Shown here one piece after another: positions 40,644 through 45,719 of a stretch of DNA of 64,000 nt; the stretch's first letter is position 1; each line of letters begins with the position of its first letter. The stretch comes from Escherichia phage LHE287, in sequence record PP761450.1; one strand, 5' to 3'. The notes beneath the pieces are model-generated. The model was not told where the DNA came from. It saw only the letters and a list, made by a program, of their open reading frames with translations, and ran no database searches. The translations under genes and the position numbers were made by a program.

Positions 40644-40723
40644 TTCAGCCTCGTGTAGAAGAATCATTTCAAATAGGCGGGGAACGCCCCGCCCACACAT
40701 TATAGCATCAGGCTGGAGATTGA

Positions 40724-41392
40724 TTACTCAATCTGTGCGCCGACGAAGTAATTGATCGTCGCGTCGGATGATTGGAAGTTCACCATCTGTAGATCAGCAC
40801 AGGCACGCAGAGTGTAGTTGCCTTCGATCATTTTCAGGTTGGCAACATCCAGTGGCATTACGAAGTCCGGCAGCGCGGTTTCGCCCAGCTCAACAGTGTA
40901 GTTGTTGGAGTTGTCTAGGGTAGTGGTGGTTGCAACCAGGCGTGTTTTGCCACCCTGAGCAACCAGACGCACAGTCTTGTGTCCGAGGGTAGAGCAGGCG
41001 CGGGTCAGTTCTTTCATCTTCTCTGGAGTGATGATCGCTTCAAAGTCAACAGACGGCAGTTCAATAGTATCAGCCGGAACAACAGTGAGTTCTTTAGCAG
41101 AACGCCAGAATTGCAGCTGAGAGCTTTCGCCTTTCAACAGGATGTAGTCCTGATGAAATTCGGCTTTGGCACCTTTGAAGGAAGGTAGGCGCTGGATGGC
41201 CAGAAGTTTGGTCAGGTCCAGAATCGGGAACTCAAACGGGAAGTCTTCTTCGATCTGCGCCACGGCGATCACAGTAGAAGAATCATTAATACTGCGCAGC
41301 ATCTTGCCTGGTGTCAGAACGATAGATGGGTTGATGGTCTCAAAGTTGGCCAGCAACTGAAGTGTACGTTCGGAGAGAGTGATCTCTTGCAT
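40724..41392 (-). CDS. gp45: sliding clamp (T4 gp45-like)
   Basis: 222 aa; LQLLANFETINPSIVL vs T4 gp45 TALLKNFATINSGIML; GAGGA SD. Confidence 0.85.
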   Translation of the reverse strand: MQEITLSERTLQLLANFETINPSIVLTPGKMLRSINDSSTVIAVAQIEEDFPFEFPILDLTKLLAIQRLPSFKGAKAEFHQDYILLKGESSQLQFWRSAKELTVVPADTIELPSVDFEAIITPEKMKELTRACSTLGHKTVRLVAQGGKTRLVATTTTLDNSNNYTVELGETALPDFVMPLDVANLKMIEGNYTLRACADLQMVNFQSSDATINYFVGAQIE

Positions 41393-41502
41393 TTGTATGT
41401 ATCCTCAAAATATAGTGGGGGTTCAAGTCATGTTTGACGCAATCTAGTATCGCTGTGTTTTGCTTATAGAACAAGTGGCAAATTGCGCTACGCGTTATTA
41501 AT

Positions 41503-41519
41503 AAATGCCTTCGGCATTT
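41503..41519. other. AT-flanked hairpin AAATGCC-TTC-GGCATTT in divergent intergenic region
   Basis: 7-bp stem, A/T flanks on both sides. Confidence 0.5.
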
Positions 41520-41524
41520 ATGGA

Positions 41525-41571
41525 CTTTATTAAAGATAATAACCTTTATTAAAGATAATAACCTTTATTAA
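41525..41571. repeat. 19-bp tandem repeat, 2.5 copies
   Basis: CTTTATTAAAGATAATAAC x2 plus CTTTATTAA. Confidence 0.85.
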
Positions 41572-41753
41572 TCCTATTCGCTTCGCTCATAAAACAAATA
41601 CTCGTTGTTCGCTAACGCTCACAACTCGTATAATACCACGCCATTGTTCAACAAGAAAGCAGTTTTTATTCAACAGCAAAAATAATTTATTTGGTCTAAA
41701 CATGCACGCGAAATAATATGTATGTCATGTTAACCAACACACGAGAGTAATAT

Positions 41754-42125
41754 ATGAAACAGTTCGTAGGATTATACGCAGTCGGGTGTAGTAAGCCAGA
41801 CGCCAACCTCACCACAGGTCAATTTATCACAGGCACCCCAGTTTATCTGACACAGCTGGCGTCAGACAAGAACTTACCATCGGAGCCGCGATTTGTCCCT
41901 CTGGGTTTGATGACAGGCCTGAAAGTTGGTCTGTATGTCGGTGCGGTGACGTTTGAAAACGGCATCGAAGCGAAGGTTCTGCCATTCAAATTGGGTAGCG
42001 AACAAATGCTGAAGGATACGATCAGTGAACACCTGAACTCACAATGTCTGGCTTCTCTGGACAAATTGTTCGGTGTAGTAACTGATGAAGGCGAGGCCAC
42101 CCCCGCCTATGTGAATCAAGATTAA
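41754..42125 (+). CDS. hypothetical protein (123 aa), plus strand
   Basis: ATG 41754; follows 360-bp divergent intergenic region containing TATAAT. Confidence 0.5.
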   Translation: MKQFVGLYAVGCSKPDANLTTGQFITGTPVYLTQLASDKNLPSEPRFVPLGLMTGLKVGLYVGAVTFENGIEAKVLPFKLGSEQMLKDTISEHLNSQCLASLDKLFGVVTDEGEATPAYVNQD

Positions 42126-43630
42126 TCGTGATTACCCAGCGCCACCTTCATGAATTCCACAGGGTGGCGCTCTGCCAGGTAAAACTTGTAACGCTCGTGA
42201 GAGTGCCTAAGAGCGTGGTTCGTGCTGGCGTTGTACGATGCATCATCCACTAAGTCCCATATCCACGCGACGTCCTTAGAGGAGTGCTGACGCATCAGAC
42301 GACCCAATGTCTGTATGACGCGGATATATGACTTGCTCGGGTGTGCAAGTACAAGGTGGTGTAGTTTCTTGATCGACACACCCTGCTGCATTGTCCCGTA
42401 TGATGCCAACAGGGTGATGTCCTCTCCATCCTCCATCGCTTTCTGTATGCGGCGGCGGTCTTCGATCTTCACTTCCCCGTTGATGACAAACACGTTGGGC
42501 TTGACTGCGCTCAGCATATCATACACGACCATCATGTGACCATCAATACGCTCGAACATGATGGCCACGTTTCCTTTCAGATTCAGTGCCATCTTGGCGA
42601 TCAGTTCGTTGCGGGACTGGTGTGTGATAAGGTATTCTATTTCCTTGGAATAATCCCCGTCCAGACCAACAGCATCCGCCGGAGTGTGCTTCAGCTGAAT
42701 CATCTTCACTTTGATGTCAGTGGCGTACCCGAGATTGATAAGATCGCGAGCTGTGATGATCTTATGGTACGCCCCGAAGTGAGCCACCACCTGAAGCCCG
42801 GCAACTTTGGTGTTCGCCAGCGTACCTGTAACCCCCAGGCGCTGGTCGGCATAGATGCAGTTGTTTAGGATGTAAGACAGTTTCTCAGACTTGGAGGTGT
42901 GCACTTCATCCACCACGATATCACCGAACTGGTGGAACCATTCCTTCGGTTGATCTTGAATGCCTTGCCATGTACTGATGACGATTGGTTTGCTGATCTC
43001 CTTTGTCGCGCCCTCAAAAATCAGCTGGGTGTTAACAACGGGCTTCCAATCACTGCCATGCGCATACTCTTCGAAGTTGTCGTACAGCTGAGTGACTAAG
43101 TGGATTGACGGCACCACGATAAGCGTCTTCAGAGGACTTTCGAGAGCTTCTCTGCGTCGCCTGTAGTACCGCGCCATGACATACAGAATAAAGGACTTAC
43201 CGGCACTCGTAGCCAGTTCACAGACGCATCTGGTTTGACGCATAGCCTTGGCGATGGTGTCGTACTGGTAGTCACGAGTCTCGGCATCGATATATTCGTG
43301 ATTTTCGGTACGGATCTTTGGATGCAGACTGTCGATGAATTCACGGATTTCTTCATCTGGGATGTCCTGAATGTACTTCAGCGCCGGATCCAGTTCAATG
43401 GTGTATCCGTTGTTCTTACAGAACTTAAATACCTCAAACAGCAGACCGATATCGATTAGACCAGATGACTTGGTAAATAGGCGGACAACCCCGTCCCATT
43501 TAGAGAAGGGGTTGGGAACGAAGTTCGGGTCTTCGAATTTGAAGTAGTCATTAAGTTCTTCCCTGATAGAAAGATCTGCGATGCAACGCATGCGGACTTC
43601 GTTAACCTTAACAATCTGAATGTCTGCCAT
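42122..43630 (-). CDS. uvsW: UvsW-like SF2 DNA helicase
   Basis: start ATG 43630 (GGGAG SD); FKFCKNNGY and ELATSAGKSFILYVMARYY match T4 UvsW; DEVH box, QTLGRLMR motif VI. Confidence 0.85.
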   Translation of the reverse strand: MADIQIVKVNEVRMRCIADLSIREELNDYFKFEDPNFVPNPFSKWDGVVRLFTKSSGLIDIGLLFEVFKFCKNNGYTIELDPALKYIQDIPDEEIREFIDSLHPKIRTENHEYIDAETRDYQYDTIAKAMRQTRCVCELATSAGKSFILYVMARYYRRRREALESPLKTLIVVPSIHLVTQLYDNFEEYAHGSDWKPVVNTQLIFEGATKEISKPIVISTWQGIQDQPKEWFHQFGDIVVDEVHTSKSEKLSYILNNCIYADQRLGVTGTLANTKVAGLQVVAHFGAYHKIITARDLINLGYATDIKVKMIQLKHTPADAVGLDGDYSKEIEYLITHQSRNELIAKMALNLKGNVAIMFERIDGHMMVVYDMLSAVKPNVFVINGEVKIEDRRRIQKAMEDGEDITLLASYGTMQQGVSIKKLHHLVLAHPSKSYIRVIQTLGRLMRQHSSKDVAWIWDLVDDASYNASTNHALRHSHERYKFYLAERHPVEFMKVALGNHD

Positions 43631-43658
43631 ACAAAATCTCCCAAGGATTATGGGGTAT

Positions 43659-44405
43659 TTAGTGATCCGGCCAGACTCCGTTTTGTTCTTTATCCATGCG
43701 ATGATACAGACGAACACGCTCAAACATCTTTGTCAGAATGTCATCACGGTTGAACTCAATGACGGTTGGTAGAGGGGAAGACTCGTTGGCAATCACGTTG
43801 ATGAGGCGGGTGATCTTGACGCCGAACATCTGCTGGAACATGACCGAATATAAGCACAGCTGGATACTGTAATCCTCGATCATGCCCCGCGTCTTCATGG
43901 TGTTCGATGTCTTGAAGTCGATGACAGCAGGTTTACCCTCATAAACCCCGATAAGGTCTACACGGCCTGCAAGACCAAGCACCTCGCTATATAATGGGAT
44001 CTCCTGAGCATAGATCTTTGTCATCTTGTTCAGGTAAGGGAACAGCTGCTTGAACATGAACATGTATTCACCAGCCGCTTCCAACACTTCTTTCATTGGG
44101 CGGTTCTTTAGATACAGTTCACAAGCAAGGTGCAGCTTCTCCCCTCGGTCAGCACAGCGCATGGTCTCAAGATCAGCGGCCTCTGCGCCCAGCTTCTTCC
44201 TCCAAGACTCAAGCCATTCATGATCTCCAGTGCGTCCCAGCATAGTCGTGACGGATGTCAGTTTAACACCAGACGGTGAAACGTAATGACGACCATTCTC
44301 CGTCGTAACACACTCCAGTTCCTTATGAGGAAGTTCGTATTGCTGGAATGTGTAATGACGGTTTTCGAAGTCATTCAGCTTGCGTAGATCCTGGAGAGAT
44401 GCCAT
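43659..44405 (-). CDS. PD-(D/E)XK family nuclease (Cas4/RecB-like)
   Basis: 248 aa; GRVDLIGVY...AVIDFKTS and YSIQLCLY (QxxxY) motifs. Confidence 0.55.
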   Translation of the reverse strand: MASLQDLRKLNDFENRHYTFQQYELPHKELECVTTENGRHYVSPSGVKLTSVTTMLGRTGDHEWLESWRKKLGAEAADLETMRCADRGEKLHLACELYLKNRPMKEVLEAAGEYMFMFKQLFPYLNKMTKIYAQEIPLYSEVLGLAGRVDLIGVYEGKPAVIDFKTSNTMKTRGMIEDYSIQLCLYSVMFQQMFGVKITRLINVIANESSPLPTVIEFNRDDILTKMFERVRLYHRMDKEQNGVWPDH

Positions 44406-44873: not shown

Positions 44874-44915
44874 AAAATATCCCAGCTTGTCAATGTCATA
44901 GAATTATACCGCATT

Positions 44916-45719
44916 TCATGGATTAGAATCAATCGCCTTCCCACCAGATAGTGGAACCAGCTGTTGGAACTTGAAGGTCACTGTTGTCACCAGCTGAGGT
45001 ACAGCCGCGTCTACGTCCACCAGTACGTTGTCCAAAGCAGTCGGGCGGGCTTCCTCCAGCACGAGAGTGAGGCCAATCGGTCGGTTGAGGTTATCCAGCA
45101 ATTCAATGGTAATGTCCTTGCTGACAGGCAAATCCTTGCCGACGTTGCTGGTAATCCATTGGTGGATCTGTAACCATGATTTCCAGTCCTCGTCTATAAC
45201 GAAAGTAAATACGACGGGATCATAGGTTAAACGCTCTGAAGGTATAGAAACCAACACGTCACCAGGAGACGGACCATCGATGCCTTCGGAGTACACCCCT
45301 GGTATACTGAAGTCGTGGATGTTACGGGTTAGGAGTACAAGGTCTCCGATAGTCAGACGCCACTTATCGGACGCCGCGAAATTAGGGTTTTCGTTCTTGA
45401 ATTGTACGTTGGACATAATAGCACCTTTGCTGTGGAGATATTTTGTGACCCTGATGCGCGGGATCAGTAGATTGTTGTTGGCATGCTCGATGCTCTTGTT
45501 TACGAGCTGTCGCATCTTTGTCACGCCAATAATTTCTGTTTCCGAACTCTGGAACCCAGAAGTGCGCACTGTACCTGTGACGTTGTCGGCCAGCGTTCCC
45601 ACTTGTAACAAGGGTATGCTGGACATCATCGTGCAAGAGTTCCAGCCCTTCCAGAAGCTCGTACCTTTAGGTTGCTTTGATGAGAACATGAGCACCCTCA
45701 AGCCATACTGGAAGACCAC
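44916..45719 (-). CDS. hypothetical protein (267 aa)
   Basis: GTG start 45719 with strong AGGAGAGGAA SD; internal ATG 45417 alternative. Confidence 0.5.
   Translation of the reverse strand: MVFQYGLRVLMFSSKQPKGTSFWKGWNSCTMMSSIPLLQVGTLADNVTGTVRTSGFQSSETEIIGVTKMRQLVNKSIEHANNNLLIPRIRVTKYLHSKGAIMSNVQFKNENPNFAASDKWRLTIGDLVLLTRNIHDFSIPGVYSEGIDGPSPGDVLVSIPSERLTYDPVVFTFVIDEDWKSWLQIHQWITSNVGKDLPVSKDITIELLDNLNRPIGLTLVLEEARPTALDNVLVDVDAAVPQLVTTVTFKFQQLVPLSGGKAIDSNP

What the first reader, a model, noticed from the sequence alone, without database searches (positions are those of the whole stretch)
41393..41753. 360-bp divergent intergenic region with a 19-bp tandem repeat and an AT-flanked hairpin
This is the longest non-coding stretch in the window, between the gp45 start and a plus-strand gene. 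It contains CTTTATTAAAGATAATAAC repeated 2.5 times, a hairpin AAATGCC-TTC-GGCATTT, a TATAAT at 41625-41630 and extended A/T-rich sequence. That combination resembles iteron-like protein-binding sites next to a DNA-unwinding element, so a replication origin or regulatory hub is plausible.
Basis: partly seen in the sequence, partly recalled or inferred. Interest (0 to 1): 0.5.

Follow-up and report, generated by a model that had tools for sequence, protein, structure and literature searches.

The report
Conserved regulatory spacer beside phage clamp gene
The flagged 361-bp gap upstream of the sliding-clamp gene of a ViI-like (Ackermannviridae) phage is a real non-coding control region that is strongly conserved across the family. 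The eye-catching 19-bp tandem repeat inside it is only a recent, strain-variable duplication and not a set of origin "iterons".

Summary
The window comes from an Ackermannviridae phage (Aglimvirinae), 98% identical to Escherichia phage RPN242.

The 19-bp repeat is a copy-number polymorphism. There are 3.5 copies in phage A221, 2.5 here and 1.5 in all other Aglimvirinae. It is diverged in Kuttervirus and deleted in Taipeivirus. It sits in the least conserved part of the gap.

The rest of the gap is 71-82% identical between genera, against about 50% at gp45 third-codon positions. It shows no coding potential and no conserved RNA fold. It holds three promoter-like modules:
- one leftward, for gp45;
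- a rightward TATAAT;
- a rightward CTAAAC, a variant of the family's CTAAATA motif.

It also holds a hairpin shared by two subfamilies, and an AT tract that is conserved in position but not in sequence. In RPN242 that tract is the least stable DNA in the genome.

A rare box, TCGCT(N0-2)CGCTC, occurs twice in the gap and once more in a second conserved gap upstream of gene 5.

Best reading: a compound divergent regulatory region. A T4-like, transcription-primed replication origin is not excluded (about 0.2) but has no direct support.

The parts
41393..41753 (.). The whole non-coding region between gp45 (leftward) and ORF123 (rightward)
   Evidence: No ORF is conserved, and indels between genera break all frames. 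It is 70-80% identical over nearly its full length across 273 Ackermannviridae records.
41400..41442 (-). Conserved gp45 leader and translation-initiation region. It holds the Shine-Dalgarno GAGGA (41402-41406), the block ACTATATTTTGAGGATA, and a small hairpin GTCA-N4-6-TGAC (41427-41438) whose loop varies between genera.
   Evidence: The block is invariant or nearly so in all genera except Kevin and phiEa2809. The role is inferred: translation control, possibly by the RegA repressor encoded 2 kb downstream.
41463..41477 (-). Block CACTTGTTCTATAAG (minus strand), the putative -10 region of a gp45 promoter (TATAAG, 41468 to 41463)
   Evidence: The block is conserved in all genera. It is followed, in the direction of gp45, by about 12 variable bases and then conserved leader, the same pattern as the other two promoter modules. 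TATAAG serves as the -10 of two early-type promoters elsewhere in the window. No -35 match was found, so the assignment is tentative.
41501..41521 (.). 9-bp palindromic hairpin ATAAATGCC-TTC-GGCATTTAT, terminator-like on either strand
   Evidence: It is kept in Aglimvirinae and Kuttervirus, with the loop changed from TTC to TGAC. In Taipeivirus it is replaced by an AT-only sequence with no significant fold (z -0.1 and 0.7).
41525..41571 (.). 19-bp tandem repeat CTTTATTAAAGATAATAAC x2.5: a copy-number-variable slippage product between 9-bp direct repeats CTTTATTAA
   Evidence: There are 3.5 copies in A221, 2.5 in the window and RPN242, and 1.5 in AV101, Ag3, LIMEstone1 and a metagenomic lineage. 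It is absent or unalignable in other genera.
41577..41589 (+). D1 box TTCGCTTCGCTCA
   Evidence: Its core TCGCT(T/A)CGCTC is kept in all 13 lineages aligned, including Erwinia phage phiEa2809 and Serratia phage Kevin; one metagenomic lineage has a 1-nt insertion in it. The motif TCGCT-N0-2-CGCTC occurs 4 times in the 155-kb genome against 0.65 expected.
41597..41621 (+). E block AATACTCGTTG plus D2 box TTCGCTAACGCTCA, which overlaps the weak -35 (TTGTTC here, TTGCTC in most other genera)
   Evidence: The LIMEstone1 GenBank record marks the stretch spanning the 3' part of D1 and the start of E as a 'putative middle promoter', by in-silico prediction only.
41618..41634 (+). F block CTCACAACTCGTATAAT, with the -10 hexamer TATAAT at 41629-41634
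   Evidence: CACAACTCG(T/A)ATA is invariant in all 13 lineages. It is unique in the genome. The -35 matches only 3 of 6, so the consensus scanner did not call it.
41644..41672 (+). G block TTGTTCAACAAGAAAGC..TTTTTAT, a conserved sequence just downstream of the predicted rightward start; function unknown
   Evidence: No consensus RNA structure was found. The stretch 41641-41702 has GC 0.27 and contains the second least stable 40-mer of the gap.
41690..41702 (+). H block TTTGGTCTAAACA, a late-type promoter-like element (CTAAAC at 41696-41701) 53 nt upstream of the ORF123 start
   Evidence: Invariant in 11 of 13 lineages aligned and absent from phiEa2809. The related CTAAATA lies 10-80 nt upstream of a same-strand start in 15 of 20 genome occurrences (P 5e-17). 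TCTAAAC does so in 3 of 7, always at 53-58 nt.
41754..42125 (+). ORF123, the only plus-strand gene in this part of the genome; its stop overlaps the stop of uvsW
   Evidence: PHROG 4255, function unknown; no Pfam hit. It is 37-40% identical between genera. The AlphaFold model has pLDDT 78.5 and finds no PDB fold match.
40724..41392 (-). gp45 sliding clamp gene, first gene of the clamp / clamp-loader / regA block

Best explanation
The gap is a compound, family-conserved divergent control region, not a repeat-based origin.

Reading leftward, it supplies a promoter for the essential clamp / clamp-loader / regA block. The -10 lies around 41468-41463. A conserved leader of about 60 nt follows, carrying the ribosome-binding site and probably a translational operator.

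Reading rightward, it supplies two stacked promoters for the lone reversed gene ORF123. One is host-sigma70-like, with TATAAT at 41629-41634, and is flanked by the conserved D and E boxes. Those boxes most likely bind a phage or host factor. The other is a CTAAAC element related to the family's CTAAATA motif (probable late-type promoter, inferred).

The two halves are separated by a palindromic hairpin and an AT-rich spacer. These act as a terminator or insulator against read-through, for example from the uvsW transcript that runs antisense through ORF123. They may also act as an upstream AT element.

The 19-bp tandem repeat arose by replication slippage between two 9-bp direct repeats inside that spacer. 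It lengthens the AT tract and has no conserved role of its own.

Shown here: the conservation pattern, the copy-number polymorphism, motif enrichment, and the absence of coding potential or a conserved RNA fold. Inferred: which elements fire, when they fire, and what binds the boxes.
For: Identity and context: the window is an Aglimvirinae phage, and the gap is flanked by gp45 and a reversed ORF next to uvsW.

Selection: between genera the core 41573-41702 is 76-82% identical and the left block 71-81%. gp45 third-codon positions are 48-52% and the hairpin+repeat segment 25-50%. Conserved blocks persist in 13 lineages, including three metagenomic ones.

Promoter logic: three modules each show a conserved -10-like block, about 10 variable bases, then conserved sequence. 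CTAAATA is strongly tied to gene starts (15 of 20, P 5e-17). TCTAAAC lies 53-58 nt from three starts, one of them ORF123. A sigma70-like early class, TTTACT-N17-TAxxxT, follows terminators elsewhere in the window, so terminator-then-promoter is the local grammar.

[quoted passage not shown] LIMEstone1 annotators placed putative promoters on both strands of this gap.

Repeat: copy number is 3.5, 2.5 or 1.5 among phages that are 94-98% identical, and the repeat is missing in other genera.

Not RNA and not coding: no Rfam match. RNAalifold consensus energies are -3.0 and -10.6 kcal/mol with almost no covariation. Frame-breaking indels are present.
Against: - No transcription start or end has been mapped in any Ackermannviridae phage in the literature I could search.
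- Neither sigma70-like promoter has a good -35: 3 of 6 for the rightward one and none for the leftward one.
- About 130 bp of near-invariant sequence is far more than promoters normally need.
- The core is better conserved than the gene it would drive. ORF123 is 37-40% identical between genera and unrecognisable in phiEa2809 and Kevin.
- The D box recurs in a second conserved gap where no TATAAT follows it.
- The hairpin is missing in Taipeivirus, so termination there cannot be essential.
Confidence: 0.6

Rival explanations
1. The gap is, or contains, a replication origin of the T4 kind. A transcript from the TATAAT promoter, or from a leftward counterpart, invades an adjacent easily melted AT tract. 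It forms a persistent R-loop that primes leading-strand synthesis. The D and E boxes position a factor or shape the promoter. UvsW, encoded next door, later removes the R-loop. This does not exclude promoter function, because T4 origins are promoters.
For: - In RPN242 the AT tract between hairpin and D1 is the least stable 40-mer of the genome. Its position is conserved in every genus while its sequence is not, as expected of an unwinding element.
- A second low-stability stretch (GC 0.27) lies directly downstream of the TATAAT promoter.
- The conserved core outlasts its neighbouring gene in evolution.
- A rare box is shared with a second conserved AT-rich gap upstream of gene 5, and genus-specific variants of the box co-vary at both loci.
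- T4 oriF and oriG consist of a promoter plus an A+T-rich unwinding element of non-specific sequence. T4 oriE depends on an early promoter. T4 oriE, oriF and oriG sit where transcription changes strand (PMC3016281).
- The locus lies among replication and recombination genes.
Against: - There is no direct evidence of initiation.
- Cumulative GC skew turns only at about 23.6 and 132 kb, where gene orientation flips, not here.
- The family lacks MotA and AsiA, so the defining middle promoter of oriF and oriG cannot exist (PMC3184105).
- The strongest AT tract lies upstream of the TATAAT promoter, not downstream.
- The downstream AT stretch is sequence-conserved, which an unwinding element does not require.
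- ORF123 shows no DNA-binding fold.
- Vibrio relatives have a gap of similar size here but none of the boxes.
Confidence: 0.2
2. The conserved core encodes a small non-coding RNA or a structured leader. One candidate is a roughly 120-nt leftward RNA that starts near 41623 and ends at the hairpin. Another is a rightward regulatory leader of ORF123.
For: - The palindromic -10 (TATAATA / TATTATA) could fire both ways, and the hairpin plus a U-rich tail could end a leftward RNA.
- In the second gap, the D box pairs with a downstream GCGAG to close a small three-helix fold, and one hairpin of that fold carries compensatory changes.
Against: - No Rfam family matches.
- The consensus fold is weak on either strand, with almost no compensatory changes across 10 lineages.
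- No partner for the D boxes exists in this gap.
- The hairpin is absent in Taipeivirus.
- Conservation is at the level of primary sequence.
Confidence: 0.08
3. One reading: the 19-bp tandem repeats are iterons bound by an initiator or regulator, and the adjacent AT sequence is their unwinding element.
For: The repeat is perfect and is the strongest tandem array in the window. It sits in very AT-rich DNA. The short word TTTATT also recurs upstream of the D box in the second gap.
Against: - Copy number differs among near-identical phages, and most relatives have 1.5 copies, that is, one unit plus a 9-bp direct repeat.
- The sequence is unalignable in Kuttervirus and deleted in Taipeivirus, although the rest of the gap is conserved.
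- Even in T4 oriE, no link between the iterons and origin activity has been established (PMC3016281).
Confidence: 0.03

Closest known systems
Divergent promoter regions of T4-like phages (early sigma70-type plus late gp55-type promoters upstream of replication genes such as gene 45)
   Same: The gap sits upstream of the clamp gene in a T4-related replication module. It has a sigma70-like -10 and an element similar to the family's probable late motif. The phage encodes gp55, gp33 and gp45 homologues, and a regA translational repressor lies downstream.
   Different: The probable late motif here is CTAAATA or CTAAAC, not the TATAAATA of T4. The family has no MotA or AsiA. About 130 bp of extra, deeply conserved sequence with repeated CTCG/GCTC boxes has no T4 counterpart that I know of.
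T4 oriF (uvsY) and oriG (gene 34) R-loop origins
   Same: A promoter lies next to an A+T-rich, easily melted tract, at a local switch of transcription direction, beside uvsW and uvsY.
   Different: There is no MotA-dependent promoter. The main AT tract is upstream of the promoter. Nothing functional has been tested.
T4 oriE with its 12-nt iterons and the small early genes repEA and repEB
   Same: Short direct repeats lie near a small gene transcribed against its neighbours, and oriE depends on an early promoter. From memory only, not checked here: oriE lies near gene 5, as does the second D-box locus in this family.
   Different: The conspicuous 19-bp repeats are not conserved. The conserved boxes are few and unevenly spaced: the recurring word ACTCG sits 21-32 bp apart across genera. 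ORF123 shows no similarity to any known family.
Variable-number tandem repeats produced by replication slippage
   Same: The copies are perfect. The array is bounded by 9-bp direct repeats. Copy number is 1.5, 2.5 or 3.5 among phages that are 94-98% identical.
   Different: None for the repeat itself. It simply lies inside a functional region.

Membership tests
Iteron-type origin (plasmid-like; T4 oriE-like) | Several evenly spaced direct repeats that are conserved among relatives | tested here: not met
   The 19-bp repeat has 1.5-3.5 copies in close relatives, is unalignable in Kuttervirus and is deleted in Taipeivirus. The conserved D/E boxes are only 2-3 copies with variable spacing.
Iteron-type origin (plasmid-like; T4 oriE-like) | An adjacent gene for a repeat-binding initiator | tested here: inconclusive
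   ORF123 is adjacent, but it has no Pfam hit, belongs to a PHROG of unknown function, and its model (pLDDT 78.5) finds no PDB fold match at E<0.1.
Iteron-type origin (plasmid-like; T4 oriE-like) | Replication initiates there | not testable with these tools
   This needs marker-frequency analysis, 2D gels or a plasmid replication assay.
T4 oriF/oriG-type R-loop origin | A MotA-dependent middle-mode promoter | tested here: not met
   ViI-like phages have no MotA or AsiA (PMC3184105). Only a sigma70-like -10 with a weak -35 is present.
T4 oriF/oriG-type R-loop origin | An A+T-rich unwinding element downstream of the promoter, of non-specific sequence | tested here: inconclusive
   41641-41702 has GC 0.27 and contains the second least stable 40-mer of the gap, but it is sequence-conserved. 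The least stable tract lies upstream of the promoter.
T4 oriF/oriG-type R-loop origin | A persistent R-loop and autonomous replication of a fragment of about 100 bp | not testable with these tools
   Requires experiments.
Sigma70-type promoter | A -10 close to TATAAT and a -35 close to TTGACA, 16-18 bp apart | tested here: inconclusive
   The -10 is a perfect TATAAT at 41629-41634. The best -35 is TTGTTC (3 of 6) at an 18-bp spacing. The scanner did not call it.
Family-specific CTAAATA promoter-like motif (probable late promoter of Ackermannviridae) | CTAAATA 10-80 nt upstream of a same-strand start codon | tested here: inconclusive
   The gap has the variant TCTAAACA 53 nt upstream of ORF123. 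The variant is itself enriched upstream of starts (3 of 7, P 0.003), but the sample is small. That the motif is a promoter is inferred from position, not shown.
Intrinsic (Rho-independent) terminator | A G+C-rich stem followed directly by a U tract | tested here: inconclusive
   The scanner calls it on the + strand. The stem has 9 bp with only 3 G-C pairs, and the tails are AUUUAU-type and interrupted on both strands. It is absent in Taipeivirus.
Structured non-coding RNA or riboswitch | A match to a known family, or a conserved fold with compensatory changes | tested here: not met
   No Rfam match better than E=4.8. There is no meaningful consensus structure on either strand.
Slippage-generated variable-number tandem repeat | Perfect tandem copies whose number differs among otherwise near-identical genomes | tested here: met

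The most novel reading that the evidence does not exclude
This gap and the second D-box gap upstream of gene 5 are the replication origins of enterobacterial Ackermannviridae. The box TCGCT(N0-2)CGCTC would be a family-specific recognition element that marks where a primer transcript or an initiation factor acts, next to the most easily melted DNA of the genome. Because genus-specific variants of the box co-vary at both loci, one trans-acting factor would read both.
Probability: 0.18. Interest if true: 0.65.

Novelty: new member of a known kind. Interest (0 to 1): 0.4.

Why it matters
Ackermannviridae (ViI, CBA120, LIMEstone-like phages) are widely used as biocontrol and therapy candidates. 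Yet their early and middle promoters, late promoter and replication origins have never been mapped. The literature says explicitly that the signals at points of divergent transcription are unknown (PMC3184105).

This analysis gives concrete, testable elements in one such point:
- three putative start sites;
- a rare conserved box shared by two gaps;
- the least stable DNA of the genome.

It also shows that the conspicuous tandem repeat can be ignored, or used as a strain marker. If the origin reading were right, it would extend the T4 promoter-plus-unwinding-element origin design to a family without MotA.

Tried and rejected
- Rfam scan of the gap at a permissive threshold: only chance-level hits.
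- RNAalifold on both strands of the core with 10 lineages: no supported structure.
- Small ORFs in the gap: none conserved, and indels break frames.
- GC skew as an origin signal: turning points follow gene orientation at about 23.6 and 132 kb, not this locus.
- IMG/VR search with gp45: it returned the same phages plus very distant clamps and added no diversity.
- Vibrio relatives: a gap of similar size between uvsW and gp45, but none of the conserved blocks, so they did not help.
- Treating ORF123 as an initiator or regulator: no family match and no fold match.
- Fitting the D box to sigma70, MotA-box or late-promoter geometry: no consistent spacing across genera (reasoned).
- Literature searches for promoter, transcriptome or origin mapping in this family: only in-silico predictions were found.
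- The Vaiskunaite 1999 oriE paper could not be read. The statement that T4 oriE lies near gene 5 therefore rests on memory.

Full report
**What the window is.** The 1.5 kb around the finding is 98% identical to Escherichia phage vB_EcoM-RPN242. It is 91-97% identical to other Aglimvirinae (Ag3, SKML-39 and the Dickeya LIMEstone-like phages) and 60-80% identical to Kuttervirus and Taipeivirus. Almost all genes in the window lie on the minus strand. The finding lies between the start of the gp45 sliding-clamp gene (minus strand, 40724-41392) and a lone plus-strand ORF of 123 aa (41754-42125). The stop of that ORF overlaps the stop of uvsW (minus strand). Downstream of gp45 lie gp44, gp62 and regA. 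Upstream of uvsW lie a nuclease gene and uvsY.

The gap is 361 bp with GC 0.338, against 0.495 for the window. The 19-bp unit CTTTATTAAAGATAATAAC is repeated 2.5 times without mismatch at 41525-41571. This is the best-scoring tandem array of the window. The hairpin AAATGCC-TTC-GGCATTT is at 41503-41519. It extends to 9 bp and folds at about -9 kcal/mol on either strand, z about -3.

**The tandem repeat is a polymorphism, not a conserved site.** Aligning the gap from 15 and then 13 lineages gives these copy numbers:
- 3.5 copies in phage A221;
- 2.5 in the window and RPN242;
- 1.5 in AV101, Ag3, LIMEstone1 and one metagenomic lineage.

The match lengths fit this: 1521, 1501 and 1480-1484 bases for a 1501-base query. 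The 1.5-copy state is one unit flanked by the 9-bp direct repeat CTTTATTAA, the substrate for slippage. In Kuttervirus the segment is unalignable and in Taipeivirus it is deleted. The hairpin+repeat segment is 25-50% identical between genera. That is no better than gp45 third-codon positions, at 48-52%. Iterons would be expected to be conserved; these are not.

**The rest of the gap is strongly constrained.** The 361-bp query finds 273 Ackermannviridae records, and 270 of them match over at least 80% of its length. Between genera the core 41573-41702 is 76-82% identical and the gp45-proximal block 41393-41500 is 71-81%. Both are close to the first-codon-position identity of gp45, 83-86%. The blocks TCGCT(T/A)CGCTC and CACAACTCG(T/A)ATA persist in all 13 lineages aligned, including Erwinia phage phiEa2809 and Serratia phage Kevin. 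By contrast, ORF123 is only 37-40% identical in protein sequence between genera and is not detectable in phiEa2809. The non-coding core is therefore older and more constrained than the gene beside it.

**It is not coding and not a recognisable structured RNA.** One-base indels between genera break every reading frame. Rfam gives nothing better than E=4.8. RNAalifold gives consensus energies of -3.0 kcal/mol (plus strand) and -10.6 kcal/mol (minus strand) over about 190 nt, with almost no compensatory changes. Conservation is at the level of primary sequence, which points to DNA-level or single-strand recognition.

**Promoter-like content.** I defined the local promoter grammar from the window and from the complete RPN242 genome.
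- CTAAATA lies 10-80 nt upstream of a same-strand start codon in 15 of 20 occurrences (P 5e-17). In the window all 10 copies are on the gene-sense strand. It is probably the family's late promoter, which Kutter et al. reported as unidentified.
- The variant TCTAAAC lies 53-58 nt upstream of three starts, one of them ORF123.
- A sigma70-like early class, TTTACT-N17-TAxxxT, follows terminators elsewhere in the window.

Within the gap, three modules share one conservation signature: a conserved -10-like block, about 10 variable bases, then conserved sequence. They are CTTATA/TATAAG at 41463-41468 (leftward, towards gp45), TATAAT at 41629-41634 (rightward) and CTAAAC at 41696-41701 (rightward). 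The -35 regions are poor, so these assignments are inferences. The LIMEstone1 GenBank record also places putative promoters on both strands of this gap, by in-silico prediction.

**The hairpin.** It is kept in Aglimvirinae and Kuttervirus with a changed loop, and lost in Taipeivirus. It is the only terminator-like site between uvsW and gp44. Its likeliest role is to stop leftward read-through that would run antisense through ORF123, or to insulate the two divergent units. That role is dispensable in some genera.

**The AT tract.** In every genus, the least stable 40-mer of the gap lies at the same place, between the hairpin position and the D1 box, although its sequence differs. In RPN242 it is the least stable 40-mer of the 155-kb genome, at -37.7 kcal/mol against a mean of -54.5 (sd 3.7). 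With only 1.5 repeat copies it would still rank near the top of the genome list (-39.3). This could be a DNA-unwinding element. It could equally be an upstream AT element or simply a terminator tail.

**The D box.** TCGCT-N0-2-CGCTC occurs four times in RPN242, against 0.65 expected. Two copies are in this gap (41577-41589 and 41608-41621). One is in coding sequence. One is in another gap of about 360 bp that is AT-rich and family-conserved, upstream of gene 5 (RPN242 44898-45260, about 2.2 kb left of the window). In Aglimvirinae the two loci share 33 nt, TTTATT..ATCCTATTCGCTTCGCTCAT.AAAC, and in both the box follows a hairpin and a T-rich tract. Genus-specific variants co-occur at both loci: TATTCGC..GCTCAT in Aglimvirinae, TACTCGC..GCTCGT in Kuttervirus and AACTCGC..GCTCGT in Taipeivirus. 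This suggests one trans-acting reader or gene conversion. I could not fit the box to sigma70, MotA-box or late-promoter geometry, and what reads it is unknown.

**The origin hypothesis.** T4 oriF and oriG are a middle-mode promoter plus a downstream A+T-rich unwinding element of non-specific sequence. T4 oriE depends on an early promoter and has iterons of unproven role. T4 oriE, oriF and oriG sit where transcription changes strand (PMC3016281).

This gap resembles that design in four ways: a promoter beside very unstable DNA, a local strand switch, a position among replication and recombination genes, and conservation beyond the needs of the adjacent gene.

Against it:
- there is no MotA in the family;
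- the main AT tract lies upstream of the promoter;
- there is no skew signal;
- ORF123 has no DNA-binding fold;
- no experimental data exist.

I put this reading at about 0.2. It is compatible with the promoter reading, not opposed to it.

**Verdict.** The finding is a new member of a known kind, a conserved divergent phage control region. It has two unexplained extras worth an experiment: the D box shared by two gaps, and the position-conserved, least stable DNA of the genome.

Noticed in passing
Outside the window: RPN242 (OL656110) 44898-45260, locus L030; about 2.2 kb left of window position 1: This is a second family-conserved, AT-rich non-coding gap of about 360 bp, between gp26 plus a small ORF and gp5. 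It carries a 33-nt near-copy of window 41563-41596, including the D box. Downstream of the box is a GC-rich segment that folds into a small three-helix structure. One hairpin has compensatory changes (GCCC/GGGC, GCCU/AGGC, GUCU/AGAC). There is no Rfam match. It is possibly an undescribed phage non-coding RNA.
   Followed up: partly
window, minus strand: 63877, 59600, 56438, 52897, 46859, 43662, 39234, 13916 and others: CTAAATA, often followed by CC, lies 20-45 nt upstream of start codons, always on the gene-sense strand. Genome-wide 15 of 20 copies are 10-80 nt upstream of a start (P 5e-17). It is probably the late promoter of ViI-like phages, which the CBA120 paper reported as unidentified. 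A variant, TTG(G/T)TCTAAAC, lies 53-58 nt upstream of three starts.
   Followed up: partly
window, minus strand: 57254, 27469, 27113, 25402, 12549, 6287: A sigma70-like early promoter class, TTTACT-N17-TA(T/A)xxT, usually follows a GC-rich terminator and an AT-rich tract. Two nearly identical copies of one such module, about 70 nt each, lie 356 bp apart at about 27483 and 27127, each upstream of a small ORF.
   Followed up: no
window, minus strand: 57186, 12480, 26742, 23389; a partial copy at 41416 upstream of gp45: A recurrent translation-initiation context, (C)TTGAAA-N3-6-(A)GGA/GAG-ACTATATC-ATG, is shared by several unrelated genes. The gp45 leader has the ACTTGAAC...ACTATAT part 20 nt further upstream. 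The meaning is unknown; it could be a translational operator or a processing site.
   Followed up: no
window 41754-42125 (+): The ORF123 family (PHROG 4255) has an invariant N-terminus MKQFVGLYA.G and an invariant disordered C-terminal tail GEATPAYVNQ around a fast-evolving middle. The helix before the tail ends in SLDKLFG. From memory, this resembles the clamp-binding tails of T4 gp43, gp33 and gp55. Some records call this ORF a 'clamp loader subunit'. It might be a clamp-interacting protein.
   Followed up: partly
locus L011 (Salmonella phage Se-I, MN871497, flagged UNVERIFIED_ORG), aligned to window about 41618-41640: The left half of the gap is Kuttervirus-like and the right half plus ORF123 is Aglimvirinae-like. 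The switch falls at the invariant block CTCACAACTCGTATA. This is either a natural recombinant or a chimeric assembly.
   Followed up: no
window 42122-43723 (-): The mechanical ORF for uvsW starts at a TTG at 43723. CTAAATA at 43662 and the annotation of relatives instead point to the ATG at about 43642. In LIMEstone1 the uvsW gene is split by the HNH endonuclease I-LimI.
   Followed up: no
window 40701-40723 (between gp45 and gp44), minus strand: CTATAAT is followed at once by the hairpin GGGCGGGGCG-TT-CCCCGCC and TATTTG, a terminator-like site between the clamp and clamp-loader genes. It is annotated as a terminator in Klebsiella phages Menlow and May.
   Followed up: no
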